A DNA stretch of 64,000 bases from Anthoceros angustus (GCA_010909165.1 VJWM01000068.1:248001-312000); one strand, 5' to 3'. Positions 1 to 21,424 are shown, counted from the stretch's first letter. Notes: generated by a model not told the origin, from the sequence alone. Numbers and translations: made by a program.

Positions 1-299
1 ACGTGTCATTTGTTTTAAGACTCATTGGAGTGGGGCGCCGCATGCGCCCTCTCATTTCCTTCGTTTGGTTGTAACACGTAGGTGGGGAAGGCGCGCATGC
101 GCGCCTTACCTATCACTTCACGGTTTTCGACTGACGGTGGGTGTGCGGCAAGTGAAAGATGTGCGATTTGAAAAACTACGAGGACTTCCGTGCTTTCATC
201 GAAGTGCACACATGGAAGGGTCCGGAGAACGAACAAAGGACCCTAGCGACATGGACATGGAAGAAGGCCTGCGATGTTCACTGTTCCAACCACGGTGTA

Positions 300-925
300 T
301 CGTGAAATACCAAGTGGTAGCGAGAGATGTGTTGGACATCCGAGGGTTTTACGGAAGAGGAATTACACTTTATTGGTTATGGATGTGCCTGTGGGATTCA
401 ACAAGGAAAGCATGATGTAAAGATGGACCAAACACGGATGGGCGCATGTTCACTCTTTCCATGACATGACGAGTTGTGAGGAAATCGCATGATAGTTATG
501 CATGGGGTGGAGGAGCCGCAGGGAGGCTGCACGGCTGGTGCACGTGGAGGATGGTCTCCTTCGTATGGGACAAAACTAACATGCATAATGATCAAGGTGG
601 ATATGATACCGCCGAGTACATCACGGTAGGGTGGGGGTAACTACAGCAAGAAGAACAAGGTTTCAATGTTACCTAACACCGTCCTTGGCTCGTTCAATAA
701 TGGTCGCTCATTGGGCACAACGTCGTCAAGAAGCTTCTTTATATGTCATTGGACAAGCTCGTGGTATGTGCTTATCGAGGCCATTAGGGTTGATGCGTAA
801 GATGATCAACAACTTCTCCAAAGAAGGAGATTGGATATTAGATGCGTGTGCGAGGAGCGGGACGACCCTAGCAGTACGCTATGTGGCCGCTGCATGCGCG
901 TGGACTTGGACAAACGATGTGCGAA
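300..925 (+). pseudogene. Beta-class N4-cytosine/N6-adenine DNA methyltransferase (N6_N4_Mtase-like), frameshifted
   Basis: Motifs occur in beta-class order across frameshifts: 'KYQVVARDVLDI' (~304-340); 'NYTLLVMDVPVGFN' (361-402, resembling DLIxTDPPY motif IV); 'SFVWDKTN...TAEYITVG' (557-631, the WxK...E motifs); 'RPLGLMRKMINNFSKEGDWILDACARSGTTLA' (778-873, resembling KP..L...I...S.eGD.VLDPFxGSGTT motif I); 'GRCMRVDLDKR' (885-917, resembling GR.fiGiEld). Confidence 0.72.
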
Positions 926-2236
926 TTCATTCCCCAAAGGATACATGGATATGAGGTACTTCCGACCGAGGAGGAATTGAATCATGAGCCACCGGAGGAC
1001 GCTCAGTCAGGCAAAGGAATTAAGCTTGTCAGAAGGGTCACTTTCATGGCTGTCGTACCTTTGGGGTTCAACAGATGAAAGAGAAAACGGGCAAATCGTT
1101 GATGACGGGCAGAGAACTCGGCAGTGCCATCCAGACTACAACACCCAAAGCGGTCCTCGTCTCTTGGATGTGGAGAATGCCATGCGAGAACGACAACTTC
1201 GAGGACCCCGACAACGCCTCCTCGTAAAGCGTTGATGTTGTGTTCGATAGCGTGTCGGGCAATGCCCACCCGAGACTCAAGTCGGCGAAGATTTTGGTAG
1301 TTAGGTTATTGGAAATTTACGCTTGCTATGTCCGACTTAGAAACCTTTAGGGGCCGCATGCCGCAAACATTCCCTTTAATCTTTTATTGCTTTTAGTGCT
1401 ATGTATTGCTTTTCAAGTAGGTGTGAAAATCGACAAGCGGCTCTAATATCATTGCGGAAGGCGATTGGGGCCTTCGGGCATACTACGACCATAGCAGTGT
1501 GCACTTGATGTGAAAAGTAGGCGATGCGTAGGGAAGGAGGAATGAACCATCACCAAGAAAATTAAAGCGTCGAAATCGTGGAATTCGGTGCCCACCATGT
1601 TTTCCAGTTGGGTTTTCTGTGAGCGGCTTTGTATATTCGCTTCAAATATTATGCTTGTTTATTGCCCATCACGTGAGCGATTCGGTACCTTGGGCACAAT
1701 TGGTACACTCGGGACTACAATATCGAATTTGATCTTCTTGTCCGAGCTGCTATCCTTCCGGCTAGTTATCGATCGTTCGTCTCTTCCCAAAACCGATCGG
1801 TCCGGACTTCTAGCAGCGGTGGTGGACAATCCACCTAAGCGTATTCGAGCTTGGCGCACTCCTTAGGGAGGCATCCCGCTTCAACTCGGCACATCTAAAC
1901 ATGGTGGAAGCGGTGATGTTTGTGACTCGGGGTCACAAAATCAACAGAAGAGAGAATAACCCGGGAACAACAACTCCGGCACATCAAAGGCCTCCTTGCC
2001 TCTTCCTCCTCCAAGCACAAAGCGTCAAGGGGCGTGCAATTGGTGTCGATCACCCGGCCCGGGCGAGTGGTGAAGAAGCGAGCCGGTGAGGCCAAGCGTG
2101 AGATCAAGGCGCTAATCTGACTATATCTCCAAGGCCAAGAACCGGTCAAGTCTGAGATTGCTTAGTGTGCTTGGTAGCAGTTCGGGACCTCACAGTTCTT
2201 GGACTCATGACCTTGCCCATATCTGCGCTCCAAGCA

Positions 2237-5200
2237 CATGTTTACTTCTTGGCGACAAGCGACACTCAACGTTTTGTCTTTGTTGGCGATGACTCGGCCT
2301 TGCTATTCTTTGGAGTTGGTTCCGTGACATTCTGTGGAGGATGGTTCCTCCCTTGTGCTAAATAGTGTGCTCCACGTCCGCGGATGGCTAAGAATTTGAT
2401 TTCCGTTCGCCAACCGCTAGATGGAGCTTTTTTGGAGTTTGGACGTGAGGATTGTTTCTCTATCGTTCCTCTCGGCCAAAAAGTTGTCGCGGAGGCAGCG
2501 ATGATCTCTACATCTTCACAGCACCGGCACACTACACTAACTGCGTGGTAGCATCTTCTAAGGTTGTCTCACCACCAGGCCCTCAGCAGAATGCCCTACT
2601 TTGCTTTGTCGACTTGGGCACCTCAATCACCTTAAGCTCCTTGCCATGACTCGGCGGGACTTGTATCGAGATAAGTTGCCCTCCTTGGCCAAGACACCAC
2701 CTCTTTGTGAAGCGTGTGTGCTGTGGCGGAGCTCTCCTACTCTCTTCACCCGCTCATAGGGCTTCTCGGCCTTTGGAGTTAGTTCACGTAGACTTGTGTG
2801 GACCTCTCCTGTTACTTCTTTAGGCGGAGCACGCCATTTTATAGCGATAGTGGATGATTATTCCGCTACTCTTTTGCGTACCGTCTCAAAGTGACTCCTT
2901 TCTTTGTGTTCTCACCTTTTGTTTCTATGGAGTTGCTGGATGCAAGCTACGGCATCGAGATCCGAATGCGGAGAACTCAGCAACCATCGATTCAAAGACT
3001 ACGTGAGGAGCGTGGGATCTTGAGACAATTCCTTTGTTCCCTACACTTACGCTCGAATGGCGTTCTTGAGAAGGCCAATGGCGATCTCATGGCCATGGCG
3101 CGAGCTATGTTAGCCAGTCTCAAAGTCTTTTTGAGGCGGTCTCTGGCGACATACATCAAAGCAGTTCTTGACCAAGTCCGTTGTTGGCCGTACTCCTTTC
3201 AGTCTTGGCATGGGTACAAGCCGTTGATCACCCATTTTGCGTCTTTGGCTCTCCTGCTTATGCCTATGTCCCTCATCCGTGATAAGCTTTCTTCCCGGAA
3301 GGCGGTGTTTGTGGGTTATGGTGAGGATCGCAAGGCGTACAAGTTGATTGACGTGGCTACTCGGACTCCTGTTTATGCTCGGACTGTCACTTTCGACGAG
3401 GCTAGCATTCTCTCCTCTGGTCCGCTTTTGGATGAGGATGATGATGCAGCTTCTATCCCCAATAGTCCCCGCTCTACTGACATTTCTGTTCACTTTGATT
3501 TAAGCCCTTCGTCTTTTCCTGCTGGTGCTGTTCCTGTCCCTGCCATGGCTCCTTTACCTCAAGCAGTTCCGGTTCTTCCGGTTCCTGCTCGAGAGGGGGA
3601 ATATGATCGGCCCATGGATGATGCACAGAGACGATTACCTCTGGATTTGGGGACATACATCTTTGGAGAGGCTCGGACATTCCTTTACCGCCTCCATCAC
3701 CCCGAGACACAGTCGTTGTTCACAGGTGGGTACCCTCACGTCGAGACTACCAAGACACCTGGAATGAGAAGCCATTTGACTTGGAGTTCAATCAAGTGGT
3801 TATCTTGATCTTGATCTAGCCTATTCTCTTGCTATGAGTTACATTGTTTGAGGAGGAGATCCTCTCACACTTCAAGAAGCATATGCTAGACTGAGTCTAA
3901 CAAGTGTGGGCTGGTGGCGATGAGTATAACTCTTTAGTCAAGAATAACACTTGGGCGTTAGTGGATCTACCCCGGGAAGGACTCATCAGTGCAAGTGGGT
4001 ACTCAAAACCAAGTTTCAAGAGGTTGAGCCCGCATACGTTATAAAGCGAGGCTAGTGGCCAAGGGCTATAGTCGAAAGAGTCGACTATCAAGGCGATCAA
4101 GTCTACTCACACATCGTCAAGCGACCGATAAGGATGCTCCTTGCTTTATGTCTTGAACTTAACTTGGACATCTATCAATTTGGGCGTTTATGACTTTCCT
4201 CTATAGTCACTTGGAAGAAGAGATCTACATGGATCAACGAGGATTATGAGGATAAGAGATTCCCACAAGGTGTGTAAACTCCTTCGTTCTATTTATGGGC
4301 TCAAACAAAGTCCTCATTGTGGTACAAGAGAATTGACTCTTATCTTAAGAAGATTGGCTTCGTGCAAAGCGAAGCGATACTAACACTGTATGTGCTACAA
4401 AGGACAGCTCACTTGTTTTGATAGCGTTATCGTGGATGACTTAGTTATCCCCGGTAACAATGTGGAGTTGGTTAACGGATCAAGGCGATCTCGGCAAGGA
4501 GTTTGAAATGAAAGATGGGTCAAGTTAAATACATTCTTGGAATGCACGTACACAAAGCAGTCCTTTGGAGCAATCTACCTTCATCAAGGTCGATATGTAG
4601 GGATGCTCAAGAGGTTCAACTTGGAGAATGCAGCGCTACCACTCCAGTCTTTGTTGGTGTTAAGCTCTCCTCATCTTCTTGTCCACAGTGAGAAAAGAAA
4701 TGGAGAGTGTACCTTGTATGGCGGTTGGCACTCTCATGTTTCTTCAAGCTGGACAAGACCGGACATATCTAATCTTTGTGTCACGGTTGCCCAATTCTCA
4801 CGAGAACCGGAAGGGATCATGGGTAGCACTTAAAGAATTATGCGGTACCTCAAGGGTACTTCTAACTATGGTCTCTGCTACAAGCCTAGTGGCAAAGGAG
4901 TCTACAATTGACTTGCTATGTCGATGCAGTTGGGCGAGACACCGAAGAGTCTATCGGCTTATTGCTTCCTCATGGCTCCTTTGTTGTAAATTGGTCTTGT
5001 AGGAAACAAGCCTCAATATCTTTATCTTCCACGAGTCGAGTACAAAGCTCTCGAAGCCACTAAGGAGGCAGTGGGAAAGGAAGTTGTCACGAGACTTGGG
5101 TATGCAACAAGTAGGACCTCGCTTATTAAGCTGATAATATATGCCATACAGTTTCTAACCACATGTTTCACGCACTAAGCACATTGAGATTCAACATCAT

Positions 5201-8200
5201 TATGTTAGAGATGCTCTTGAGAGGGCTTAGTGAAGATCGGTGTATCAACAGATGATAATCTGACGATGTTACGGTGAAGTCTACAAGTTTAAACATGTTT
5301 TCCACGGAGAAGGGCTCGGACTTGTAGATTGTAGTAGCTATGTGACTAGACAAATCACTCATTTGGTGAGGCTTTCCATGTTTACTTCACTACATAAGCG
5401 ACACTCAACGCTTTTGTCTGGGCGATGACTCCGGCCTTGCTATTCTGGAGTTGGTTCGGATATCTACACCGGAGGATGGTTCCTCCTTGTGCTAAATAGT
5501 GTGCTCCACGTCCCAGATGGCTAAGAATTTGATTTCCGCCGCCAACCGCTAGATGGAGCTTTTCTGGAGTTTGGACGTGAGGATTGTTTCTATCGCTCCT
5601 CGCCAAGGCAAGTTGTCGCCGAGGGCAGCCCCGCATGATCTCTACATCTTCACTGGCACCCCTGTACACTACACTTGCTGCAGTGGTAGCATCTTCTAAG
5701 GTTGTCTCACCACCGGGCTCCCTCCATCCGGAATGCCCTACTTTGGCACTCGACTTGGGCACCTCAATCTCAAGCTCCTTGCCATGACTCGGGACTTGTA
5801 TCGAGATAAGTTGCCCTCCTTGGCCAAGACACCACCTCTTTGTGAAGCGTGTGTGCTGCAAGTGGAGCTCTCCCTACTCTGGTCTTCCCGCTAGGGCTTC
5901 TCCCTTTGGAGTTAGTTCACGTAGACTTGTGTGGACCTCTCCTGTTACTTCTTTAGGAGCACGCCATTTTATAGCGATAGTGGATGATTATTCCGCTACT
6001 CTTTTGCGTTTTCGTCTCAAGAGTGACCTTTGTCGTGTTCTCACCTTTTGTTTCATGGCGAGTTGCACACCGGATGCAAGCTACGGCATCGATCCGGCAA
6101 TGCGGAGAACTCAACAACCATCGAGTTCAAAGACTGAGGAGCGTGGGATCTTGAGACAATTCCACGTTCCCTACACCGTAATGGCGTTCGAAAGGCCAAT
6201 GGCGATCTCATGGCCATGGCGCGAGCTATGTTAGCCCGCCTCGCTTGCCTAAGTCTTTTTGTGAGGTCTCTGACGCATACATCAAACAGTTCTTGACCAA
6301 GTCGTTGTTGGTGTACTCCTTTCAGTCTTGGCATGGGTACAAGCCGTTGATCACCCATTTGCGCGCCTTTGGCTCTCCGCCTATGTCCCTCTCCCTCCGT
6401 GATAAGCTTTCTTCAGCACGGAAGCCGGTGTTTGTGGGTTATGGTGAGGATCGCGTATGTTGATTGACGTGGCTACTCGGACTCGCTTATGCTCGACTGT
6501 CACTTTCGACGAGGCTAGCATTCTCTCCTCCGGGTCCGCTTTTGGATGAGGATGATGATGTAGCTTCTATCCCCAATAGTCCCGCTCTCGACGACATTCT
6601 GCTCACTTTGATTTAAGCCCTTCGCCTTTTCCGCTGGTGCTGTTCGCCTCCATGGCTCCTTTACCTCAAGCGCCCGGTTCTTCCGGTTCCCGCCGAGAGG
6701 GGAATATGATCGGCCCATGGATGATGCACAAGGACACCTGGATTTGGGGACATACATGCTGGAGTGGCTCCAGACGTTCCTTTACCGCCTCCATCACCCC
6801 CCGAGACCTGAAGTCGTTGTTCCTGAACGTAGGTACCCTACGCGTCAGAGACTACCAAGACACCTCTGGAATGAGAAGCCATTTGACTTGGAGTTCAATC
6901 AAGTTATACTGATCTTGATCTAGCCGCCTATTCTCTTGCTACGAGTTCTGTTGTTTCAGAGGGAGATCCTCTCACACTTCAAGAAGCATATGCTAGACCT
7001 GAGTCTAACAAGTGGAAACTGGCTGTTGACGATGAGTATAACTCTTTAGTCAAGAATAACACTTGGGCGTAGTGGATCTACCCCGTGAAGGACTACATCA
7101 AGTGCAAGTGGGTACTCAAAACCAAGTTTCAAGAGGTTGAGCCCCGACACGTTATAAAGCGAGGCTAGTGGCCAAGGGCTATAGTCGAAAGAGGAGTCGA
7201 CTATCAAGGCGATCAAGTCTACTCACTGTCGTCAAAGCGATGATAAGGATGCTCCTTGCTTTATGTCTTGAACTTAACTTGGACATCTATCACCGGACGC
7301 CAGCCTTTCCTCTATGGTCACTTGGAAGAAGAGATCTACATGGATCAACCCGAGGATTATGAGGATAAGAGATTCTCAAGGTGTGTAAACTCCTTCGTTC
7401 TATTTATGGGCTCAAACAAAGTCCTCGATGTGGTACAAGAGAATTGACTCTTATCTTAAGAAGATTGGCTTCGCAAAAGCGAAGCAGATATCAACAAAGC
7501 AAAAAGGACAGCTCACTTGTTTTGATAGCGTTATCGTGGATGACTTAGTTATCCCGGTAACAATGTGGAGTTGGTTAACGATCAAGGCCGATCTCGCAAG
7601 GAGTTTGAAATGAAAGATCCGGTCAAGTTAAATACATTCTTGGAATGCACGACACAAAGACAGTCCACTTTGGAGCAATCTACCTTCATCAAGGTCGATG
7701 TAGCCGGATGCTCAAGAGGTTCAACTTGGAGAATGCACGACTACCACTCCAGTCTTTGTTGGTGTTAAGCTCTCCTCATCTTCTTGTCCACATCGGAGAA
7801 AAGAGAAATGGAGAGTGTACCTATCGTATGGCGGTTGGCACTCTCATGTTTCTAGCAACCGGACAAGACCAGACATATCTAATCATAATGCAGCTTGCCC
7901 AATTCTCCGAGAACCTGTGAAGGGATCACCGGGTAGCACTTAAAGAATTATGCGGTACCTCAAGGGTACTTCTAACTATGGTCTCGCTACAAGCCTAGTG
8001 GCAAAAGGAGTCTACAATTGACTTGCTATGTCGATGCAGTTGGGCTTCTCTGAGACACGAGAAAGAGTCTATCGGCTTATTGCTTCCTCGGCTCCATCGT
8101 AAATTGGTCTTGTAGGAAACAAGCCTCAATATCTTTATCTTCCACGAGTCGGAGTACAAAGCTCTCATGGCCACTAAGGAGGCAGTGGGAAAGGAAGTTA

Positions 8201-8503
8201 TGCTAAGACTTGGGTATGCAACAAGTGACCTACGCTTATTAATCGTGATAATATGTCGCCCATCGCCCGGTTTCTAACCTCGTGTTTCACGCCGCACTAA
8301 GCACATTGAGATTCAACATCATTATGTTAGAGATGCTCGAGAGGGCTTAGTGAAGATACGATGTATCAACAGATGATAATACCGATGTTACAAGTCTCTA
8401 CTAAGTTTAAACACTGCTTCCACAGAGAAGGGCTTGGACTTGTAGATTGTAGTAGCTATGTGACGCTAGACAAATCACTCATTTGGTGAGGCTTTCCATG
8501 TTT
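2237..8503 (+). repeat. Direct tandem duplication (~3.14-kb unit x2) of the Copia protease-to-RNase H region
   Basis: 2237-5383 matches 5377-8503. The junction falls on CATGTTT, present at 2237, 5377 and 8497. Confidence 0.9.
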
Positions 8504-8704
8504 GTTCCATCATCTCTGAAGATAACTTAAGTTGAAGACTTGCTTCGCCTCTGGTCATGATCGGTGCTCTGCGTGAGTTGTCACGACGAGACGGCCAAAG
8601 TGCGACTAGAAGATGTGACAAGCCGAAGATGGTTTCTGGCGCTTTCTTTTAGTAGTGACCTCCTTTTCTTAGTTCGGAGCTAACGCAACGTGTCCGAGAG
8701 GAGA

Positions 8705-8901
8705 GTTAGAAATACAGCGCACACGCTTGGTTCCGTACCAATATGGTTAGTCACCTAGACCTGGCGTTAGTATAGGTAGTTAGCTAGGCTAGCGAAGGAC
8801 ACACCCTTACGAGACCACCTATAAAAGCCCACCTATGAACACACTTGATTCATTGTTAATATAGCATCTTTGCTTAAGACGCTTCCGCATGCAATTCTAA
8901 C
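8705..8901 (+). repeat. 3' LTR of the first Copia (~197 bp)
   Basis: Inverted ends GTTAGAA (8705-8711) and TTCTAAC (8895-8901), directly after a purine tract, with an internal TATAAAA (~8820). The outer T and A of the canonical TG...CA are missing. Confidence 0.7.
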
Positions 8902-8904
8902 TGC

Positions 8905-9930
8905 GAGGTCCTAGATTATTGGAAAGCTGGCATTTGCTGCTTCCTTACTGTCTGTACAGCGAGGGGGTTACTGTGGGATGAATATTTTATTCAGGGGAAA
9001 AAACGATGGGAAAAAACTCATCCATCAGGGGACAACCAAGGAGGACTCCGAGGGTCGAGGTGAAAGAAAGCGACTGAGCTCCCTACCTATAGATACCTAC
9101 TACTCCCAAAACATTACATGCAGGAAGAACAAATGGCCTGCAAACCACGGCCATGGAGGATGCCTTTTCTTTTTGGTGAATAGTGATCACGGTAAATAGG
9201 ATAACTAGAAAGACGAGGAGGACAGTAACGATTGGGGATGAACCTAGCTGTTAGGTTAGGGATTGGAGAGGGCTTGTGAGGAAGTCAGATGGCTTCCCCA
9301 CACCCAGACTTTTCATATGCCTTTCGTGAAGCTCTCTTCCACGAGGTACAATTGCTAGCAAAAGAAGGAGTAGTCACCGGGCAAAAAGGGTAGTCAACTC
9401 AGCCGAAGGGTAGCAAACAAGTGTTGGAAAGAGGACAAATAGCGAGGTGCAAAGGGTACCAAGCTGGATTCTCCCAATGATGGATTATCCCTTTTGTATC
9501 AGTGTATTATTTTCTGTGACAAAATATTGCTTGCGAGTGAAGCTTTGCGGCTGGGCTGGTGGTCAAAGGTGTTTGCTCAAGATTTTATTACTTCAGGTTT
9601 GTGCTCGTCGCGTGGAGGAGGGGGATTGGGAGGTGCCCATGCTCACGATTCCTTGGAGGCTATTCGCTCATGGATCTTGAAGCTGGCCTAATGTCTCCCC
9701 GTCTGCTTGGCCGCCCCTGCTCTTTTGTTGCCTTTCCTTCGGGGTGTGTCTAGCTACATTTTTTGCTTGCGGCCCTTAGTATCTCCTTACCCTCGTATGT
9801 TTCTTGGGGGTGCTCAGTTTTTTTTTTCATTCCTTCCAGTTTATTTATGGAGTTGCCTTGGCTCTTGTTTTTGGGCGCCATTGTAAGATCCGTTCTTTTA
9901 TAAAGCTATACAGATTAACTGATAAACAAA
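8905..9930 (+). mobile_element. Possible degenerate 3' end of an L1-like LINE
   Basis: Decayed ORF fragments with a weak zf-RVT-like Cys/His pattern (GHGGCLFF..DH) ending at ~9691, then a T-rich UTR and an A-rich tail (~9900-9930). Weak. Confidence 0.25.
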
Positions 9931-10744
9931 AGTACTTCATTTTATTCTTTGTTTAATTTACAAGCTTCCAATTTTATAACGCCCCCTGGCTTGGTGCCCT
10001 TTTGTAAGTTGTCCCCATTCGCCCCAGGGCAGATAGGATTTCCCATCTCGTTCTTTTCATATAGTCTCCACATTCGTCTTTTATAACTGGCAATCCAAGC
10101 ATTGTACATGAACATAGAATAAGGACAAATACTTCCCCGAGGGTAGGTCTTTCACTCAGCTGCCTATTATATGCGTTGAATAACCCTCATAAATTTATCG
10201 AACGGATAAGTGTTACGATATTCATAATACAAAATTATTTTAATTGTTTAAATAATAAAAACATGAGAAAAATTAGAACCGCAATTCTCGATGCGGTGTG
10301 ATGAACGTCAAGCGCGTAATGTGATGCCGTCCAAATTGCGACACCGTTCGGAAACGGACGTTTCACAGCAACCGACGCCGACCAGGCTTTGAATCCTGCC
10401 TCCGTTCACCACCCGGGATTTTGGTAGGGAGTAGAATGCCCTCGGCTTCGTTGTTGACTCTCAAAGCATGGAATCGCAGGCAGCTGGCAGGCGAGTGCCG
10501 CCGTCCAAGGAAGATAAGCGCACCGAGCGATGGGTGCAGGATTGCGAGAAGCCTGCCTTCCGGATAGTGCCTGACGACTCCAAACCAACTGTCAGAGACC
10601 CTGTACGTACCCTTCCTTCCGTCTTCTGTTCTGTTGTCCTTTTACCCTCACAGTAACCTTGCTCCTACGAAGTTCTCTGAGCTGGAGAATTTTTTTTCCA
10701 AAGCTGTCTACTGCAGATCGCATTGAGACCGAACAGATTCTTTG

Positions 10745-11616
10745 CCTAGAGGCGTCCTCGAGGCAGCCAGAGGCATACAATATCTCGACAATCTCCGCAT
10801 AGCTGCATGTGACGAATCCCCTCAACAGCAATGGTTCTTCGATTCCGAGAGCACGATTCGCGGGCTGAAAACTTCGGATGGAGAGAACCTGTTCATGGTG
10901 CAAGAGCTCCAGCCCGTGGCTCAGAACCTCTCCTATACAATATCGGCAGCTCAGACGGCTTCGATGCTTCTGCTGACTTCCTGTCCTCTTAGTTCACTCT
11001 TCTTCCTGTGCCTAACTACATGTCTTTCCTGTCGTTGAGGGATCCGGAAGCTTCCGGTCCGAACTTGGTTCAAAATGGTGGGTTTGAGAAAAGCACACTT
11101 CTCCCGGCGAACCCAGACTTTTATGACGGGGAGATCTTTCCTCTGTGTGAATGGGCCATTCTACACGCTCCGAAGCTGGTTCCAAGAGAAAGCCGGGTAC
11201 CAGCAGATGGAAATTTCAGCCTCCTCATGAGCAAGAGTGCCTCCATCAACCAGACCATTCCTGCTATACAAGGCTCGGAGTATCTTCTCACATTCTGTGT
11301 CTGGTTACATCGGCCATGATGCTGATGCACTTCCAGCCCTGCACCAATGAATCGACTAATCCAGCGTATGTCACTGCAAATGCACAAACATTCGGGTCAG
11401 TAAAACATTCCAAGCATCTGAGACAGAAATGGACGACCGAAAAGCTGCCATTCATAGCCGTCGGCAACTCTACAATGATTGTTTTCGAGTCTCATGCAGG
11501 AATGACAACTGTGGACCACTCATAGATGCTGTCACAGTTTCCCTCAAACCAGCATTACCATCTTGGTTTACCAGGACGAGAATCCTCGCACGATGTATAG
11601 CAGGGCTAGCTACATT
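10745..11616 (+). pseudogene. Partial RLK ectodomain copy 1 (part of lectin-like region + DUF642-like), cut within the TM
   Basis: Contains ACDESPQQQWFF, PNLVQNGGFE and NCGPLIDAVTV. Truncated on both sides by array junctions. Confidence 0.75.
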
Positions 11617-13329
11617 TTTGCTTATGCCCTTAGTATCTCCTTACCCTCGTATGTTTCTTGGGGTGCTCAGTTTTTTCATTCCTTCGGTTTATTTATGGAG
11701 TTGCCTTGGCTCTTGTTTTTGGGCGCCATTGTAAGATCCGTTCTTTTATAAAGCTATCTGATTAAGCGATAAACAAAAGTACTTCATTTTATTCTTTGTT
11801 TAATTTACAAGCTTCCAATTTTATAACGCCCGGCTTGGTGCCCTTTGTAAGTTGTCCCCATTCGCCCAGATAGGATTTCCCATCTCGTTCTTTTCATATA
11901 GTCTCCACATTCGTCTTTTATAAGCGGCAATCCAAGCATTGTACATGAACATAGAATAAGGACAAATACTTCCCCGAGGGTAGGTCTTTCACTCAGCTGC
12001 CTATTATATGCGTTGAATAACCCTCATAAATTTATCGAACGGATAAGTGTTACGATATTCATAATACAAAATTATTTTAATTGTTTAAATAATAAAAACA
12101 TGAGAAAAATTAGAACCGCAATTCTCGATGCGGTGTGATGAACGTCAAGCGCGTAATGTGATGCCGTCCAAATTGCGACACCGTTCGGAAACGGACGTTT
12201 CACAGCAACCGACGCCGACCCGGGCTTTTGAATCCTGCCTCCGTTCACCACCCGGGATTTTGGTAGGGAGTAGAATGCCCTCGGCTTCGTTGTTGACTCT
12301 CAAAGCATGGAATCGCAGGCAGCTGGCAGGCGAGTGCCGCCGTCCAAGGAAGATAAGCGCACCGAGCGATGGGTGCAGGATTGCGAGAAGCCTGCCTTCC
12401 GGATAGTGCCTGACGACTCCAAACCAACTGTCAGAGACCCTGTACGTACCCTTCCTTCCGTCTTCTGTTCTGTTGTCCTTTTACCCTCACAGTAACCTTG
12501 CTCCTACGAAGTTCTCTGAGCTGGAGAATTTTTTTTCCAAAGCTGTCTACTGCAGATCGCATTGAGACCGAACAGATTCTTTTGCGACCTCCTCCAACAA
12601 AACCTCCTACAGAGTGGATGCGATGACCACCTGCAGAGTGGATGCAATGCTTTGTTGGAGGCAAGGATGTGCTCACTTTGACATGTTTCTGGCCAGGAGA
12701 ACATTGTAATGGATAGCTTTATAACGGCTACAGCATTAGCCAAGATTCGGAGAAGCTGACTGACGATTATGCCCTCCTCAACTCTTGTATTATTCAGACT
12801 GCAAATTTCCTCCTCCACTGGTGTAATTACAGTGCAAATTTCTAAAAACCCCATTTCTGTACACATGGGTTGCGAGTCCAGAAAAAGGGAGGACAGATTT
12901 TCATATCCTCAACAGCTACGTTCATGGAAAGGGACTGCAACAGATGAGCAACTGTGGTGGTGGTGCGTATGAGCATAGCACTGTCCTCGAGCTCACGATC
13001 TAAGCTGGTTCCATCGACAGTTCCATCGCTACCAAGCTAGCAAAGTGCATATTGTCGTTCAACAATCGAGGCTTCCAGCAACCTTTAGGGTCTGCCATGG
13101 TAATCGATAGAAGCGAGCCGCCCTGACATATGGTAGTTGGTCCCTCCACTTTACAAGGGCAGTGACGCTCCGTTTCAATCCCAGGGTCTCCACTTTTCAA
13201 TCTACTTCAACTGATTCTCTAGTGTACTACCACATACGAGAACTGCACGTAAGGTTGGCAAGCGCATCACGTCGATGTCAGTGGCGTGCGGACTTTTCTA
13301 GCCTAGTCAGTTATCAGCTTGACTACAAA

Positions 13330-13404
13330 CGCATGACGTTCACCCGATTTTGGCAAGCCCCGACCAGACCATGCTCTGAGGGGCTTCGTCTGAGGCAGGC
13401 TCTA
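13330..13404 (+). repeat. 75-bp dispersed hairpin-containing element (also 16103-16176 and 17747-17820; inverted at 32014-32088 and 32858-32932)
   Basis: CGCATGACGTTCACCCGATTTTGGCAAGCCCCGACCAGACCATGCTCTGAGGGGCTTCGTCTGAGGCAGGCTCTA is 74/75 identical to the reverse complement of 32014-32088, in unrelated flanks. Confidence 0.9.
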
Positions 13405-13590
13405 TGACAGGAGCAGAAGGCAGGCCGCGTGAGCCCTTTTGAGACTTTGAGGAGAAAGGGAACTTGCGCCCGTCTCCTGCACTTCGCCAGCCATGCACAC
13501 AAGTTGGTTGTCTGCGCACTGGGTGCAGCAAATTTTTGTTCTGGTGTGCCTCTTCATTCGACGGCAGTAGTATAAGCTGGTTCGTGGCAG

Positions 13591-14840
13591 GAGCTAACAA
13601 AACTGCACTTGAGGTTCCTACTTGCTCCTTTTGTATCAATGCTCTGGGTGCCAATGTGCATCCCAACTTCACACAGCTCAACGTCTCCATATACAGGTGC
13701 CTCAAGTTTGATGAAAACGAGCTATGGGGATATGTCAACACAACTCTGCGGCTGCAAGACAGGACCGGCCAGATTCCGTGCCTAGAGGCGTCCTCGAGGC
13801 AGCCAGAGGCATACAATATCTCGACAATCTCCGCATAGCTGCATGTGACGAATCCCTCAACAGCAATGGTTCTTCGATTCCGAGAGCACGATTCGCAGCG
13901 GGCTGAAAACTTCGGATGGAGAGAACCTGTTCATGGTGCAAGAGCTCCAGCCCGTGGCTCAGAACCTCTCTATACAATATCGGCAGCTCAGACGGCTTCG
14001 ATGCTTCTGCTGACTTCCTGTCCTCTTAGTTCACTCTTCTTCCTGTGCCTAACTACATGTCTTTCCTGTCGTTGAGGGATCCGGAAGCTTCCAGTCGAAC
14101 TTGGTTCAAAATGGTGGGTTTGAGAAAAGCACACTTCTCCCGGCGAACCCAGACTTTTATGACGGGAGATCTTTCCTCTGTGTGAATGGGCCATTCTACA
14201 CGCTCCGAAGCTGGTTCCAAGAGAAAGCCGGGTACCAGCAGATGGAAATTTCAGCCTCCTCATGAGCAAGAGTGCCTCCATCAACCAGACCATTCCTGCT
14301 ATACAAGGCTCGGAGTATCTTCTCACATTCTGTGTCTGGTTACATCGGCCATGATGCTGATACCGAGCACTTCCAGCCCTGCACCAATGAATCGACTAAT
14401 CCAGCGTATGTCACTGCAAATGCACAAACATTCGGGTCAGTAAAACATTCCAAGCATCTGGAGACAGGAAATGGACGACCGAAAAGCTGCCATTCATAGC
14501 CGTCGGCAACTCTACAATGATTGTTTTCGGAGTCTCATACGGGAATGACAACTGTGGACCACTCATAGATGCTGTCACAGTTTCCCTCAAACCAGCATTA
14601 CCATCTTGGTTTACCAGGACGAGAATCCTCGCACGATGTATAGCAGGGCTAGCTACATTGCTACTGCTGATGGCAGTCCCTGCTCTTGTTCTCAAGGGCA
14701 AAAGCTACTACACAACCTACGCACTTGCCAAACGATATGAGCTCGACCAAGAGCGACGTGTACAGCTACGCCGTGGTGGTTCTGGAGATCATCACCGGGC
14801 AGCAAGCCATCATCAACAGCGACCTGCTGGCCCGAGCGTG
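13591..14840 (+). pseudogene. RLK copy 2: ectodomain + TM, most of kinase deleted
   Basis: Matches copy 4 up to 14751, then jumps 672 bp at ACCAAG into kinase subdomain IX (SDVYSYAVVVLE). Confidence 0.8.
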
Positions 14841-16362
14841 AGCTCGCCTTCATCAGGCATTCTCGAAGGACGCTGAGGATTTCTGAGCAACGTGTCATCT
14901 TGTTGAAGGCACAGACGCGCAAATGAAAGCTTTACGAGCACATTATTCTCTGTTTGTATGTATGTAGGTACTGTGCATATGCAGGCAGTAACGCAAGAAT
15001 AGCTGCCTTTGTGAAAGCGCGGTCCGCCAAGTACGGTACAAGAGCGTTGGCCGCGGGCGTTTTGCCTTCGGTTCTGTTACGATGATGAGTCCGTTTAAAA
15101 TCAAGAGCGATTCTTGGGCAAGATCGGCGCTTCCTGGAAGCCTAATATTCTCCAGGCTGCGCCGGTTGTGAAGAATTTCGGCGCGCAATTGTTGTGGTTT
15201 CGTGTTCCGGGATTAGGCTTTATGGCCAGTGGTAAGGAGCATGGGTGGAAGATCACGCGTTTGGAGCCGCAGCTCCAGGTTAGATCCTTTCCGTTGTCTT
15301 GATGCCTGGTTGCGTGAGTTCTCGGCAGGAGGCTGCGGATGGGGTTTCAGGAGGTTCAATTGCGTGGCAACTGCGTGGCTAAGGTTTTGTTGTGCGTGCA
15401 GGTCTGACGTGATGTCAAGGATCAGGAAGCTGGCGCGGTTTCGGCGTAGGATTCAATGGCATCATCGTCTGTCGGATCGCAGGATGGTCGGTTGAGATCT
15501 GCCAGGTTTTGGCCTGCAATCCTGAGTTCCTTAGCAGATCGGAGGTGGTGAATCTGCTGTGTTGTGTTCCATGGCGTCTCCTGTGGAGGCCATGACAGCT
15601 GTTGTCTCATCTCTGCAGTGGGGCTTTCTTCACGATGACTGACTAGGTAAGCGTATCGGTGACCTATTTTTTCCTGGCATGCTTGATAGAATGTAGCTGT
15701 TGTGAAGTTCCAACAGATGAGCAACTGTGGTGGTGGTGCGTATGAGCATAGCACTGTCCTCGAGCTCACGATCTAAGCTGGTTCCATCGACAGTTCCATC
15801 GCTACCAAGCTAGCAAAGTGCATATTGTCGTTCAACAATCGAGGCTTCCAGCAACCTTTAGGGTCTGCCATGGTAATCGATAGAAGCGAGCCGCCCTGAC
15901 ATATGGTAGTTGGTCCCTCCACTTTACAAGGGCAGTGACGCTCCGTTTCAATCCCAGGGTCTCCACTTTTCAATCTACTTCAACTGATTCTCTAGTGTAC
16001 TACCACATACGAGAACTGCACGTAAGGTTGGCAAGCGCATCACGTCGATGTCAGTGGCGTGCGGACTTTTCTAGCCTAGTCAGTTATCAGCTTGACTACA
16101 AACGCATGACGTTCACCCGATTTTGGCAAGCCCGACCAGACCATGCTCTGAGGGGCTTCGTCTGAGGCAGGCTCTATGACAGGAGCAGAAGGCAGGCCGC
16201 GTGAGCCCTTTTGAGACTTTGAGGAGAAAGGGAACTTGCGCCCGTCTCCTGCACTTCGCCAGCCATGCACACAAGTTGGTTGTCTGCGCACTGGGTGCAG
16301 CAAATTTTTGTTCTGGTGTGCCTCTTCATTCGACGGCAGTAGTATAAGCTGGTTCGTGGCAG

Positions 16363-17185
16363 GAGCTAACAAAACTGCACTTGAGGTTCCTACTTGCTCC
16401 TTTTGTATCAATGCTCTGGGTGCCAATGTGCATCCCAACTTCACACAGCTCAACGTCTCCATATACAGGTGCCTCAAGTTTGATGAAAACGAGCTATGGG
16501 GATATGTCAACACAACTCTGCGGCTGCAAGACAGGACCGGCCAGATTCCGTGCCTAGAGGCGTCCTCGAGGCAGCCAGAGGCATACAATATCTCGACAAT
16601 CTCCGCATAGCTGCATGTGACGAATCCCTCAACAGCAATGGTTCTTCGATTCCGAGAGCACGATTCGCAGCGGGCTGAAAACTTCGGATGGAGAGAACCT
16701 GTTCATGGTGCAAGAGCTCCAGCCCGTGGCTCAGAACCTCTCCTATACAATATCGGCAGCTCAGACGGCTTCGATGCTTCTGCTGACTTCCTGTCCTCTT
16801 AGTTCACTCTTCTTCCTGTGCCTAACTACATGTCTTTCCTGTCGTTGAGGATCCGGAAGCTTCCGGTCGAACTTGGTTCAAAATGGTGGGTTTGAGAAAA
16901 GCACACTTCTCCCAGCGAACCCAGACTTTTATGACGGGAGATCTTTCCTCTGTGTGAATGGGCCATTCTACACGCTCCGAAGCTGGTTCCAAGAGAAAGC
17001 CGGGTACCAGCAGATGGAAATTTCAGCCTCCTCATGAGCAAGAGTGCCTCCATCAACCAGACCATTCCTGCTATACAAGGCTCAGGTATCTTCTCACATT
17101 CTGTGTCTGGTTACATCGGCCATGATGCTGATACCGAGCACTTCCAGCCCTGCACCAATGAATCGACTAATCCAGCGTATGTCAC
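16363..17185 (+). pseudogene. RLK copy 3: ectodomain fragment only
   Basis: Matches copy 4 up to GTATGTCAC (17177-17185), then jumps to downstream flank sequence. Confidence 0.75.
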
Positions 17186-18006
17186 ATCTGTTGCTGCAGT
17201 TTTTCATGGCGGGATTTCATGTCCTTCGAACACAAATGACAGACCTCGCAATGGCTACCTCGATTGAGTTGCTTCGAGGGCTTTCATGGCCAGAAGAATT
17301 TCCTCGTCAGCCATAACTCTGGCCTTATGGGGATACAGTGTACATACATTCCAGGCAGACAAAACTCTCACGAGTTTCACTACTTTTCTGTGAGAGCTGT
17401 GTCGCCGTTATCCCTGTCATGGGTTACGGTTGTTACGGTTGAACAAAACTTCAATGACTGCTTACTGAATAGTATATCTTTGCATCTACGGAAACTTTGA
17501 CATGAAATCTGCCATGGTAATCGATAGAAGCGAGCCGCCCTGACATATGGTAGTTGGTCCCTCCACTTTACAAGGGCAGTGACGCTCCGTTTCAATCCCA
17601 GGGTCTCCACTTTTCAATCTACTTCAACTGATTCTCTAGTGTACTACCACATACGAGAACTGCACGTAAGGTTGGCAAGCGCATCACGTCGATGTCAGTG
17701 GCGTGCGGACTTTTCTAGCCTAGTCAGTTATCAGCTTGACTACAAACGCATGACGTTCACCCGATTTTGGCAAGCCCGACCAGACCATGCTCTGAGGGGC
17801 TTCGTCTGAGGCAGGCTCTATGACAGGAGCAGAAGGCAGGCCGCGTGAGCCCTTTTGAGACTTTGAGGAGAAAGGGAACTTGCGCCCGTCTCCTGCACTT
17901 CGCCAGCCATGCACACAAGTTGGTTGTCTGCGCACTGGGTGCAGCAAATTTTTGTTCTGGTGTGCCTCTTCATTCGACGGCAGTAGTATAAGCTGGTTCG
18001 TGGCAG

Positions 18007-19929
18007 GAGCTAACAAAACTGCACTTGAGGTTCCTACTTGCTCCTTTTGTATCAATGCTCTGGGTGCCAATGTGCATCCCAACTTCACACAGCTCAACGT
18101 CTCCATATACAGGTGCCTCAAGTTTGATGAAAACGAGCTATGGGGATATGTCAACACAACTCTGCGGCTGCAAGACAGGACCGGCCAGATTCCGTGCCTA
18201 GAGGCGTCCTCGAGGCAGCCAGAGGCATACAATATCTCGACAATCTCCGCATAGCTGCATGTGACGAATCCCTCAACAGCAATGGTTCTTCGATTCCGAG
18301 AGCACGATTCGCAGCGGGCTGAAAACTTCGGATGGAGAGAACCTGTTCATGGTGCAAGAGCTCCAGCCCGTGGCTCAGAACCTCTCCTATACAATATCGG
18401 CAGCTCAGACGGCTTCGATGCTTCTGCTGACTTCCTGTCCTCTTAGTTCACTCTTCTTCCTGTGCCTAACTACATGTCTTTCCTGTCGTTGAGGATCCGG
18501 AAGCTTCCGGTCGAACTTGGTTCAAAATGGTGGGTTTGAGAAAAGCACACTTCTCCCAGCGAACCCAGACTTTTATGACGGGAGATCTTTCCTCTGTGTG
18601 AATGGGCCATTCTACACGCTCCGAAGCTGGTTCCAAGAGAAAGCCGGGTACCAGCAGATGGAAATTTCAGCCTCCTCATGAGCAAGAGTGCCTCCATCAA
18701 CCAGACCATTCCTGCTATACAAGGCTCGGAGTATCTTCTCACATTCTGTGTCTGGTTACATCGGCCATGATGCTGATACCGAGCACTTCCAGCCCTGCAC
18801 CAATGAATCGACTAATCCAGCGTATGTCACTGCAAATGCACAAACATTCGGGTCAGTAAAACATTCCAAGCATCTGGAGACAGGAAATGGACGACCGAAA
18901 AGCTGCCATTCATAGCCGTCGGCAACTCTACAATGATTGTTTTCGGAGTCTCATACGGGAATGACAACTGTGGACCACTCATAGATGCTGTCACAGTTTC
19001 CCTCAAACCAGCATTACCATCTTGGTTTACCAGGACGAGAATCCTCGCACGATGTATAGCAGGGCTAGCTACATTGCTACTGCTGATGGCAGTCCCTGCT
19101 CTTGTTCTCAAGGGCAAAAGCTACTACACAACCTACGCACTTGCCAAACGATATGAGCTCGACCAAGGAAAGATGTACACCTGGAGGGAGATCAAGAGGA
19201 GCACCAAGAATTTCACCACAGTGATAGGGGGAGGGGGCTTCGGCATGGTCTACAAAGCAGAATTCGCAGATGGAACAGAGGGAGCAGCCAAGGTGGAGAA
19301 ACGACAGAAGAGGCGAACGAGTCAGTTTTCCAGAGAAGTGGCTGTCCTGCAGCAACTTCATCACCGGAACCTTGTGAACCTACTTGGCGTGTAGTTGAAA
19401 AAGGGTAGGATACTCGGCCCTCACCCTTGCAATCTCCATTCACCACCGCAGCTCTAATCACGAGGCTTCACCTGCAGGAATGCACATCCTGGTGTTCCAA
19501 TACATACCGAATGGCAGACTTCATCCTAGCGACAGTCCAAGTTCCGAAGCCAGAAACAAGCCCATCCTGCCATGGAGCTCCAGAATGAAGATATGCTACC
19601 ACGTGGCCTGCGCTCTGGAGTACCTGCACCACGACATAACCCCTCCCATCGTGCACAGGGATGTGCAATCTGCCAACATCCTCCTCACAGCCACAGACTC
19701 CGCCAAGCTAGCAGACTTCGGCCTCTCCAAAGCGGCTCCAGCAAATGCCAGCGCCTTCCAGTCCATCCAGACCGACGTCAAGGGCTCCTTAGGTTACCTG
19801 GACCCCAAGTACGTCCGCTCCGGCATCTTCTCCACCAAGAGCGACGTGTACAGCTACGCCGTGGTGGTTCTGGAGATCATCACCGGGCAGCAAGCCATCA
19901 TCAACAGCGACCTGCTGGCCCGAGCGTGA
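18007..19929 (+). pseudogene. Receptor-like kinase: R-type (ricin B) lectin-like + DUF642-like ectodomain, TM, RD Ser/Thr kinase; most complete copy, disrupted
   Basis: Exon starts after a ...GGCAG acceptor at 18006. Contains C..W/QxW lectin-like repeats, NLVQNGGFE and CGPLIDAV, TM CIAGLATLLLLMAVPALVL, then YTWREIKRSTKNFTTVIGGGGFGMVY, HHRNLVNLLG, an intron at 19405-19477, HRDVQSANILL, DFGLS, GSLGYLDPKY and KSDVYSY. Defects: TAG at 19392-19394 where Cys is usual, ectodomain frameshifts, stop before subdomains X-XI. 5' exon not identified. Confidence 0.8.
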
Positions 19930-21424
19930 GCTCGCCTTCATCAGGCATTCTCGAAGGACGCTGAGGATTTCTGAGCAACGTGTCATCTTGTTGAAGGCAC
20001 AGACGCGCAAATGAAAGCTTTTACGAGCACATTATTCTCTGTTTGTATGTATGTAGGTACTGTGCATATGCAGGCAGTAACGCAAGAATAGCTGCCTTTG
20101 TGAAAGCGCGGTCCGCCAAGTACGGTACAAGAGCGTTGGCCGCGGGCGTTTTGCCTTCGGTTCTGTTACGATGATGAGTCCGTTTAAAATCAAGAGCGAT
20201 TCTTGGGCAAGATCGGCGCTTCCTGGAAGCCTAATATTCTCCAGGCTGCGCCGGTTGTGAAGAATTTCGGCGCGCAATTGTTGTGGTTTCGTGTTCCGGG
20301 ATTAGGCTTTATGGCCAGTGGTAAGGAGCATGGGTGGAAGATCACGCTGTGTTTGGAGCCGCAGCTCCGTTTCCAGGTTAGATCCTTTCCCGTTGTCTTG
20401 ATGCCTGGTTGCGTGAGTTCTCGGCAGGAGGCTGCGGATGGGGTTTCGGGAGGTTCAATTGGTGGCAACTGCGTGGCTAAGGTTTTGTTGTGCGTGCAGG
20501 TCTGACGTGTGATGTCAAGGATCGGGAAGCTGGCGCGGTTTCGGCATGGGATTCAATGGCATCATCGTCTGTCGGATCGCAGGATGGTCGGTTGAGATCT
20601 GCCAGGTTTTGGCCTGCAATCCTGAGTTCCTTAGCAGATCGGAGGTGGTGAATCTGCTGTGTTGTGTTCCATGGCGTCTCCTGTGGAGGGCCATGACAGC
20701 TGTTGTCTCATCTCTGCAGTGGGGCTTTCTTCACGATGACTGACTAGGTAAGCGTATCGGTGACCTATTTTTTCCTGGCAAGCATGCTTGGATAGAATGT
20801 AGGCCGTTGTGAAGTTCCAACAGATGACTGGCTCTCAAGTGTGTGCTACGTTGGAATGTGCTTGAGGAATGTTTTTGATGTATGTCACATCTGTTGCTGC
20901 AGTTTTTCATGGCGGGATTTCATGTCCTTCGAACACAAATGACAGACCTCGCAATGGCTACCTCGATTGAGTTGCTTCGAGGGCTTTCATGGCCAGAAGA
21001 ATTTCCTCGTCAGCCCATAACTCTGGCCTTATGTGTGGGGATACAGTGTACATACATTCCAAGGCAGACAAAAACTCTCACGAGTTTCACTACTTTTCTG
21101 TGAGAGCTGTGTCGCCGTTATCCCTGTCATGGGTTACGGTTGTTACGGTTGAACAAACTTCAATGACTGCTTACTGAATAGTATATCTTTGCATCTACGG
21201 AAACTTTGACATGAAATCTGCCATGTCTGCGTTTTGTATATATTTACTGCATGCGATTTCCAAAGCTGCATCTCTCAACTTCGAAATCCGGTCCTATGGT
21301 GACTCTCCACCTCTGACACGAGGGTGTCCTATGACCAGCAGACGAGATCTGAGATTCCCTCAACCCTAGGTGAGAATTTCGAGACATCTGAACTGCTGTT
21401 GCAACCCATGCTAGGACAAGGCCC

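What the first reader, a model, noticed from the sequence alone, without database searches (positions are those of the whole stretch)
300..1235. Bacterial-type beta-class N4/N6 DNA methyltransferase in a land-plant TE neighbourhood
Seen: five motif blocks in beta-class order (D-V-L-D entry, LLVMDVPVG motif IV-like, VWDK...EYI, RP..LMRKMI..FSKEGDWILDACARSGTT motif I, GRCMRVDLD). There are no evident introns, a hydrophilic tail follows, and a truncated Copia lies ~1 kb downstream. Established: this fold typifies prokaryotic restriction-modification and phage MTases. Eukaryotic cases are few and notable (horizontally acquired 4mC MTases in bdelloid rotifers and Marchantia; Dam-like MTases in DIRS elements). 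The D-x-P-x signature here differs from the SPPY of typical N4C enzymes. Inference: this may be cargo of an undescribed mobile element or endogenous virus that writes 6mA/4mC in a bryophyte genome. The neighbouring repeats are full of small indels that look like consensus errors, so intact copies may exist.
Basis: partly seen in the sequence, partly recalled or inferred. Interest (0 to 1): 0.85.

Follow-up and report, generated by a model that had tools for sequence, protein, structure and literature searches.

The report
Plant repeat-borne ParB–methyltransferase gene fragment
This frameshifted stretch of plant repeat DNA is the back end of a many-copy gene whose relatives join a ParB-like domain to a bacterial-style DNA methyltransferase domain; it is likely transposon cargo that would mark its own DNA, but this copy has altered catalytic residues and no activity is shown.

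Summary
The methyltransferase-like sequence is real, but it is not a fresh bacterial import. Pfam finds only motif I (E=2.7e-5). A motif scan fetched 34 eukaryote-type, intron-bearing relatives. Their profile aligns collinearly with window 165-976 (124.7 bits; background at most 22.6). The part upstream of the search motif passes alone (0 of 300 shuffles), where a prokaryote/phage profile fails (76 of 300).

In relatives the domain follows a ParB-fold domain. It keeps DIPY under purifying selection (dN/dS 0.016-0.11), and 4 of 34 loci carry palindrome arrays. This architecture is published for algal DNA-transposon accessory genes; I found no report for land plants.

The window copy is multi-copy, lacks the relatives' two introns and shares the Copia's CWG-depleted signature. 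It reads DVPV/DACARSG and has 11 frameshifts, mostly likely read errors. No transposase, termini or expression were found, and the ParB half is not in the window. The scan noted similar genes on other plant DNA before. Verdict: new member of a known kind; activity unproven.

The parts
165..976 (+). Linker helix plus beta-class amino-MTase-like domain of a ParB-MTase fusion gene; 11 frameshifts as assembled (9 deletion-type, 2 insertion-type)
   Evidence: Frameshift-aware alignment to profile columns 3-283 of 287, 124.7 bits, 82 of 257 identical to consensus; best elsewhere in the window 22.0 (+) and 22.6 (-)
165..300 (+). Linker helix that in relatives lies between the ParB part and the MTase domain (F.AH.E)
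   Evidence: 15.8 bits, 5 of 500 shuffles as high; weak alone
302..340 (+). Entry strand, motif III-like; R-D where relatives have G-D
370..399 (+). Motif IV, D-V-P-V at 382-393 (relatives: DIPY 16, DIPH 6 of 22 loci that show it)
   Evidence: hmmsearch E=7e-4 among 2,753 ORFs; same letters in the depth-44 contig of run X1
445..515 (+). SFHDMT helix and RMIVMHG strand (motifs V/VI-like; relatives: DFAELT...WRIVVFHS)
551..634 (+). VSFVWDKTN...EYITVGW block; no intron at the Trp codon where relatives have one
   Evidence: covered by several diverged X1 contigs, depth up to 122.6
778..876 (+). KP-helix and motif I (SAM binding), DACARSGTT at 841-867; first Gly read as Arg; no intron after S-G
   Evidence: Pfam PF01555 E=2.7e-5; PHROG 67 E=2e-6
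879..911 (+). Motif II-like strand GRCMRVDLD, acidic residue kept
929..1235 (+). C-terminal helix and hydrophilic tail; aligned to about 976, the rest inferred from the acidic tails of relatives
85..110 (.). 26-nt palindrome (core GGCGCGCATGCGCGCC, 90-105); looser look-alikes near 32-51 and 1351-1362; possibly an array unit, weak
   Evidence: pattern chosen after seeing it; 19 of 100 shuffles reach one match at 3 mismatches
1725..8901 (+). Neighbouring 5'-truncated Copia: weak gag trace, zinc knuckle about 2030-2075, tandemly doubled pol (2237-5383, 5377-8503), putative PPT and 3' LTR about 8697-8901; no 5' LTR in the window
   Evidence: gag match E=1.0, weak; the LTR was read by eye

Best explanation
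Window 165-1235 is the 3' part of one copy of a many-copy eukaryotic gene whose relatives fuse a ParB-fold domain to a beta-class DNA amino-methyltransferase-like domain, and it is likely accessory cargo of a large plant DNA transposon rather than a host gene or a recent bacterial import. Inferred mechanism: the ParB-like half binds the palindrome arrays on the element (as ParB binds parS) and delivers the SAM-binding domain, which in DIPY members would methylate an exocyclic amine on the element's own DNA, more likely 6mA than 4mC, to mark it or shield it from host silencing. This copy cannot be translated as assembled. Most of its frameshifts are probably base-calling errors at methylated cytosines, but its D-V-P-V motif IV makes it likely catalytically impaired. 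My odds: family membership 0.95, transposon-borne 0.7, DIPY members catalytically active 0.4, this copy active 0.1.
For: Shown: collinear match over profile columns 3-283 of 287, 124.7 bits against a background of at most 22.6; upstream-only test 0 of 300 shuffles. The window groups with the 17 eukaryotic rows, SH-aLRT 98. Relatives have GT-AG introns (intron 1 in 8 of 8 checked, intron 2 in 6 of 8); one lies beside a gene whose best solved matches carry plant enzyme names. The N-terminal domain of a relative folds like ParB: Foldseek top 10 are all ParB/Noc, E 4.6e-5 to 7.3e-4; VIA Z 9.2, rmsd 3.0, 98 aligned. Regular palindrome arrays occur in 4 of 34 loci. dN/dS is 0.016-0.11 in 16 computable of 24 DIPY pairs; 8 are saturated at synonymous sites. 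The best PDB sequence hits of the family are N6-adenine beta enzymes: RsrI, CcrM, MboIIA, DpnA. The sequence is multi-copy in this organism: 15 X1 contigs laid on 330-980, several diverged. CWG observed/expected is 0.38 here, 0.52-0.55 in the Copia, 1.48-1.93 in genes. Small indels between the Copia copies are enriched at CG (37% vs 18%) and CWG (12% vs 5%), 0 of 1000 each. Literature: a 1104-aa ParB + N4C/N6A MTase accessory protein in Ectocarpus Sola1-1 (PMC12477816); PF01555 and ParB accessory genes with inverted-repeat arrays in Bostrychia Plavaka.
Against: No transposase was found in 117 flank ORFs of the 34 relatives (50.5 kb of flank; only RVT_2 and a Copia gag hit) or in the window ORFs scanned, and no element termini were defined. 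The ParB half is not seen in the window: 1-170 does not match the upstream exon (9.3 bits, 391 of 500 shuffles). The window copy is only 30-34% identical to its relatives and sits on a long branch; the tree is a quick one, and the window row was read through under the eukaryotic profile, which favours that grouping. Motif IV departs from DPPY throughout the family (DIPY/DIPH), and the DIPH group evolves almost neutrally (dN/dS 0.59-0.80, 3 pairs). The X1 contig shares D-V-P-V and does not give one open frame either; X1 may be the source data and is not independent. The AlphaFold model of the MTase part is poor (pLDDT 42; best Foldseek hit CcrM, E=0.028).
Confidence: 0.68

Rival explanations
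1. Same family and same mobile origin, but the MTase domain is a pseudo-enzyme throughout: it is kept as a SAM-binding, dimerising or DNA-binding module that helps the ParB half organise or de-silence the element, and writes no mark.
For: The first proline of motif IV is replaced in all 22 loci that show it, and the aromatic residue varies: Y 16, H 6, V in the window. DIRS1 MTase domains are a precedent for inactive transposon cargo (PMC4738411). Earlier scan notes read it this way (unchecked).
Against: DLPY is the commonest motif IV in the phage/prokaryote set I fetched (65 of 72), so loss of that proline is ordinary, although activity of those enzymes is not shown. D, P, Y and the SAM motifs are under strong purifying selection in DIPY members.
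Confidence: 0.4
2. Cargo of a retro-element (for example carried inside or ahead of the neighbouring Copia), retro-copied and so stripped of introns.
For: The window copy lacks both introns of its relatives. It lies in the same orientation just ahead of a Copia that has no 5' LTR in the window. Copia pieces flank 2 of the relatives.
Against: No listed X1 contig joins the MTase to the Copia (a hole proves nothing, and the table was cut). Relatives keep their introns. One subfamily already lacks intron 2, so intron loss needs no retro-element.
Confidence: 0.12
3. A domesticated, horizontally acquired host methyltransferase like Marchantia DN4MT1 or rotifer N4CMT, writing 4mC.
For: Same beta order and Pfam family; the precedents exist.
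Against: Motif IV begins with D, not the S of TSPPY/SPPY. The rotifer-type N4C entries 8s9m/8s9n are not among the 10 PDB hits of the family profile at E<=10 and score only E=1.7-1.8 with the motif I fragment. The sequence is multi-copy, diverged and TE-like in CWG depletion.
Confidence: 0.05
4. Bacterial or phage contamination, a chimeric join, or a gene of an endogenous virus.
For: Single-motif searches return only prokaryote-type proteins. No read-level join to the plant genes could be tested.
Against: Those hits cover only motif I. The whole domain matches the eukaryotic family and not the prokaryote profile. The two motif patterns tried gave 0 viral-contig matches. The segment has the same CWG depletion as the plant's Copia, and X1 holds both the MTase and Copia repeats.
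Confidence: 0.04

Closest known systems
ParB-like + N4C/N6A MTase accessory protein of Ectocarpus Sola1-1_Ec32 (1104 aa; PMC12477816, passages seen) and similar proteins reported there for green and red algal transposons
   Same: Same two-domain architecture in the window's relatives (ParB fold then PF01555-type domain), multi-copy, eukaryotic; same proposed role of binding and modifying the element's own DNA
   Different: Land-plant host; no transposase or termini shown here; sequence identity to the algal proteins not tested; the window holds only the MTase half, with DVPV
Bostrychia Plavaka (EnSpm/CACTA) accessory genes PAG2 (PF01555 + SET) and PAG3 (ParB + 2OG oxygenase) (bioRxiv 2025.02.11.637652, passages seen)
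   Same: PF01555 domain and ParB domain carried by giant DNA transposons; tandem arrays of inverted repeats next to the ParB gene, as in L095, L103, L118, L123
   Different: There ParB and MTase are on separate genes with other partners; no SET or oxygenase domain was seen here
Prokaryotic and phage beta-class N6A MTases (M.RsrI, CcrM, M.MboIIA, DpnA; PHROG 67; DLPY-type phage enzymes)
   Same: Motif order IV...I, KP helix, D-x-x-x-G-x-G; best PDB and PHROG hits
   Different: Only motif I is significantly alike; the family is spliced and ParB-fused, with DIPY/DIPH/DVPV; no restriction partner
Marchantia DN4MT1a/b and bdelloid N4CMT
   Same: Eukaryotic beta-class amino-MTases of prokaryotic descent
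   Different: Those have (T)SPPY, are low-copy host genes with shown 4mC activity and no ParB domain; not the nearest relatives here
DIRS1 retrotransposon MTase domain; chlorophyte ParB-HTH + Dam family (PMC4738411)
   Same: Transposon-borne or ParB-linked amino-MTase domains in eukaryotes
   Different: Those are unpermuted group-2 MTases; this one is permuted (beta)

Membership tests
Beta-class amino-MTase fold (PF01555) | Motif IV N-terminal to motif I, collinear blocks | tested here: met
   a relative passes the Pfam cut-off (34.0 bits), the window fragment does not (24.7 < 26.7)
Active beta-class amino-MTase | [DNSH]PP[YFW] catalytic motif | tested here: not met
   Window D-V-P-V at 382-393, same in the X1 contig; relatives DIPY 16, DIPH 6
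Active beta-class amino-MTase | SAM-binding motif I with G-x-G and acidic motif II | tested here: inconclusive
   Window reads DACARSG; two diverged X1 loose ends have G at the base where the window has A, but are themselves one or two letters short there. Most relatives keep G-x-G
Active beta-class amino-MTase | Methyl transfer to A-N6 or C-N4 | not testable with these tools
   needs a biochemical assay
Eukaryotic ParB-MTase fusion family (loci L091-L124) | Whole-domain homology beyond the motif used to fetch the loci | tested here: met
   60.3 bits, 0 of 300 shuffles; prokaryote profile 14.5 bits, 76 of 300; tree
Eukaryotic ParB-MTase fusion family (loci L091-L124) | N-terminal ParB-fold domain in the same gene | tested here: inconclusive
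   Met in relatives. In the window only the linker is seen; the rest would lie before base 1, and no genome is held
Eukaryotic ParB-MTase fusion family (loci L091-L124) | Two conserved GT-AG introns in the MTase domain | tested here: not met
   The window is contiguous at both sites; intron 2 is also absent in 2 of 8 relatives checked, so the trait varies
Transposon accessory ParB-MTase (Sola1-1, Plavaka type) | Lies within a DNA transposon with transposase and termini | tested here: inconclusive
   No transposase in 117 flank ORFs or the window ORFs scanned, but flanks are short; multi-copy and CWG-depleted
Transposon accessory ParB-MTase (Sola1-1, Plavaka type) | Tandem palindrome array next to the gene | tested here: inconclusive
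   Clear in 4 of 34 relatives; one palindrome and two loose look-alikes in the window
Transposon accessory ParB-MTase (Sola1-1, Plavaka type) | Sequence homology to the algal proteins | not tested
DN4MT1 / N4CMT 4mC enzymes | (T)SPPY motif IV; low-copy host gene | tested here: not met
Endogenous virus cargo | Viral hallmark genes or viral relatives | tested here: inconclusive
   0 viral-contig matches; only a weak v110 hit 34 kb away (E=0.0035); DNA upstream of base 1 unseen

The most novel reading that the evidence does not exclude
Land plants harbour a widespread, undescribed class of large DNA transposons that carry their own ParB-parS-like targeting system fused to an active N6-adenine (or N4-cytosine) methyltransferase, so the elements write a bacterial-type mark on themselves against host 5mC silencing. 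This plant's intronless subfamily, once read errors are removed, includes intact copies and would be a genuine enzymatic source of 6mA/4mC in plant repeats.
Probability: 0.22. Interest if true: 0.85.

Novelty: new member of a known kind. Interest (0 to 1): 0.5.

Why it matters
Land plants are described as having few amino-MTases (PMC4738411), and the rotifer enzyme was said to have no eukaryotic homologues (PMC8885841). A multi-copy ParB-MTase family under purifying selection, with its own palindrome arrays, extends an idea so far proposed for algal transposons (elements that bind and modify their own DNA) to land plants. It also gives a concrete test: one protein, one predicted binding site, one predicted mark. 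If active, it offers an enzymatic source for 6mA/4mC signals in plant repeats and a possible anti-silencing strategy. This particular copy matters mainly as a deeply diverged, intronless lineage of the family.

Tried and rejected
No genome is held, so no genome-wide copy search was possible. Protein searches with single fragments or fragment alignments found no close relative: 1 hit, 0, 5 of which 3 were MTases at 34-48% and 2 spurious, and 16 prokaryote-type motif I hits. Alignments A1, A2, A3 and A5 stacked unrelated fragments and were dropped. The Atlas gave generic PF01555 clusters under 0.9 and one blank. Strict motif patterns gave 0 in metagenome and viral contigs; one viral locus rested on 12 residues and was ignored. 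No RNA holder was listed, which says nothing on expression. The prokaryote/phage profile could not validate the upstream blocks. The MTase-domain fold was too poor to use. No 5' LTR or long inverted repeat bounds the segment. Window 1-170 against the upstream exon gave no signal. 13 of 34 loci lacked one exon by my parser and 4 were duplicates, leaving 17 for the profile. dN/dS pairs of unequal exon length were skipped. The careful tree did not finish, so the quick tree is reported; DN4MT1, N4CMT and the algal proteins are not in it. Literature searches for a land-plant description found none, nor a paper on DLPY/DIPY activity. Iyer 2011, cited for green algal cases, is not held. The search meant to place the host by its PPR motif returned nothing.

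Full report
Observation. Pfam PF01555 matches 1 of 13 fragments from 2-1232, the motif I block 778-876 (E=2.7e-5, below the curated cut-off). A frameshift-aware alignment to a profile of 72 prokaryotic and phage beta-MTases scores 46.1 bits, all from that block. With the block held fixed and the rest shuffled, 19 of 200 (cheap frameshifts) and 107 of 200 shuffles do as well. Against bacterial-type enzymes, therefore, only motif I is more than chance.

Setting. The window is land-plant nuclear DNA: a receptor-like kinase with DUF642, Bet v 1, PLS-type PPR with E/E+ motifs, cyclin and HAT1 genes. The lineage was not determined. Downstream of the finding lies a 5'-truncated Copia whose pol region is doubled in tandem (2237-5383 and 5377-8503, 87% identical); no second LTR is in the window. 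CWG trinucleotides are depleted in 165-976 (observed/expected 0.38), in 1240-2080 (0.23) and in the Copia (0.52-0.55), but not in five genes (1.48-1.93). The segment thus shares the signature of the plant's repeat compartment, which argues against contamination.

Frameshifts. The two Copia copies differ by 175 gap events and only 117 substitutions. Of 147 small indels, 37% touch CG and 12% touch CWG, against 18% and 5% at random (0 of 1000 each); homopolymers are not enriched. I infer base-calling errors at methylated cytosines; that such errors occur in long reads is my own knowledge. One DNA run, X1, holds the region. Fifteen of its contigs lie on 330-980. The longest (depth 44.4, 355-611) differs by 2 substitutions and 14 gap letters and is identical over motif IV. 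Others are diverged paralogues with depth up to 122.6. The sequence is therefore multi-copy. X1 may be the source data, and its contigs also appear to miss single letters, so it cannot show an intact copy.

Finding the relatives. Protein searches with short fragments returned only prokaryote-type motif I matches. A degenerate DNA pattern for the motif I block, partly guided by a recalled motif, found 0 viral contigs in a slightly stricter form and 34 metagenome contigs. These are eukaryote-type. GT-AG introns sit at two fixed sites (intron 1 in 8 of 8 checked, intron 2 in 6 of 8). One locus lies next to a dehydrogenase whose best solved matches carry plant enzyme names, and two lie next to Copia pieces. 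The hosts of the others were not determined.

Family test. Twenty-one of the 34 loci gave both main exons, 17 distinct. Their profile aligns with window 165-976 over columns 3-283 of 287 at 124.7 bits, with 11 frameshifts (9 of deletion type) and 82 of 257 residues identical to consensus. The best score elsewhere in the window is 22.6. Because the loci were fetched with motif I, I tested the upstream part alone: 60.3 bits, null maximum 23.9, 0 of 300. The prokaryote profile gives 14.5 bits, 76 of 300. A quick ML tree groups the window with the 17 eukaryotic rows (SH-aLRT 98) on a long branch, at 30-34% identity. The window row was read through under that profile, so the tree is supportive, not independent. 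The window copy has neither intron.

Anatomy of the family. In the longer loci a large exon precedes the MTase exons. Its model (pLDDT 65.5) matches ParB and Noc as all ten best Foldseek hits (E 4.6e-5 to 7.3e-4) and PadC at Z 9.2, rmsd 3.0, 98 aligned. Pfam and PHROGs miss it. Regular arrays of palindromes with 41-63 nt spacing occur in 4 of 34 loci, directly upstream of the gene in L118, L103 and L123. Motif IV is DIPY in 16 and DIPH in 6 of the 22 loci that show it. DIPY members are under strong purifying selection across the domain (dN/dS 0.016-0.11 in 16 computable of 24 pairs; 8 saturated). Three DIPH pairs are near neutral (0.59-0.80). The family's best PDB sequence matches are N6-adenine beta enzymes. 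No transposase was found in 117 ORFs from 50.5 kb of flank. In the window, the linker before the MTase is weakly detectable (5 of 500), 1-170 is not (391 of 500), and there is one 26-nt palindrome at 85-110.

How it most likely works. Shown: family membership, ParB fold and palindrome arrays in relatives, multi-copy status, constraint on DIPY members. Inferred: the gene is accessory cargo of a large DNA transposon; the ParB half binds the palindromes and brings the SAM-binding domain to the element's own DNA; an Asp-led motif IV and the PDB hits favour 6mA over 4mC. The main rival is a pseudo-enzyme with a structural role. Loss of the first proline alone does not decide this, since DLPY is the commonest motif in the phage set (65 of 72). 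The window copy reads D-V-P-V, and Arg for Gly in motifs I and III. Both Arg codons begin with A directly after a GCG codon, which fits damage or misreading at methylated sites (inference). It is unlikely to be an active enzyme as it stands.

Comparison with what is known. PMC12477816 (passages seen) describes a 1104-aa ParB plus N4C/N6A MTase accessory protein in an Ectocarpus Sola1 transposon and proposes that such proteins bind and modify their own element. bioRxiv 2025.02.11.637652 (passages) describes PF01555 and ParB accessory genes with inverted-repeat arrays in red algal Plavaka elements. Marchantia DN4MT1 has TSPPY (bioRxiv 2021.02.12.428880, passages) and rotifer N4CMT has SPPY (PMC8885841, passages); neither motif fits. 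PMC4738411 (parts 2-3 of 8 and passages) lists eukaryotic clades, none described with this architecture in land plants in what I read. PMC12344493, PMC8566409 and PMC7027989 (passages) added nothing specific. Iyer 2011 was not available. The supplements of the two algal papers were not seen and may list land-plant cases or sequences. Eight searches found no land-plant description. Earlier notes of this scan report similar genes in a moss, a flowering plant, other plant DNA and an animal; they gave me the lead to the algal papers and are otherwise unchecked.

Verdict. A real, diverged, intronless and error-ridden copy of a eukaryotic ParB-MTase repeat gene: a new member of a kind known from algal transposons, apparently unreported in land plants in the library searched. 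Interest 0.5. The family is testable and intriguing; this copy shows no activity and no element boundaries.

Noticed in passing
window 2237-8503: Copia pol region doubled head to tail without an LTR between; the copies differ by more indels than substitutions, enriched at CG/CWG, likely a read-error signature of methylated DNA or an assembly duplication
   Followed up: partly
window 1-9000 versus genes: Repeats are CWG-depleted but only mildly or not CG-depleted, while genes are CG-depleted (0.43-0.62) and CWG-rich
   Followed up: partly
window 9750-22600: Cluster of near-identical partial duplications of a DUF642 receptor-like kinase region, 2-4 copies per segment
   Followed up: no
window 27442-29820 (-): PLS-type PPR with E and E+ motifs; its PGQSWWTD motif I recall as a variant of non-seed plants (recalled; one search found nothing). 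A second PPR fragment lies at 63320-64000
   Followed up: partly
window 13325-13404, 16133-16176, 17777-17820, 32014-32093, 32858-32937: A short dispersed repeat of 44-80 nt in both orientations, possibly the end of a small mobile element
   Followed up: no
window 25584-25976: Tandem array with a 26-nt period
   Followed up: no
window 57700-60500: Second degraded Copia (RVT_2 E=1.5e-21 at 59318-59581)
   Followed up: no
window 35473-35847: Weak Pfam v110 hit (E=0.0035) in a low-GC stretch; probably chance
   Followed up: no
L119 2-703 (-): An unannotated ORF runs head to head with the ParB-MTase gene; no Pfam or PHROG hit; a candidate for the partner transposase gene's first exon
   Followed up: partly
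L095 547-1729: A palindrome array directly abuts a 5'-truncated copy of the gene, like an internally deleted non-autonomous element
   Followed up: no
L096, L104, L105, L116, L120, L121: A subfamily with DIPH at motif IV; three pairs tested show near-neutral dN/dS
   Followed up: partly
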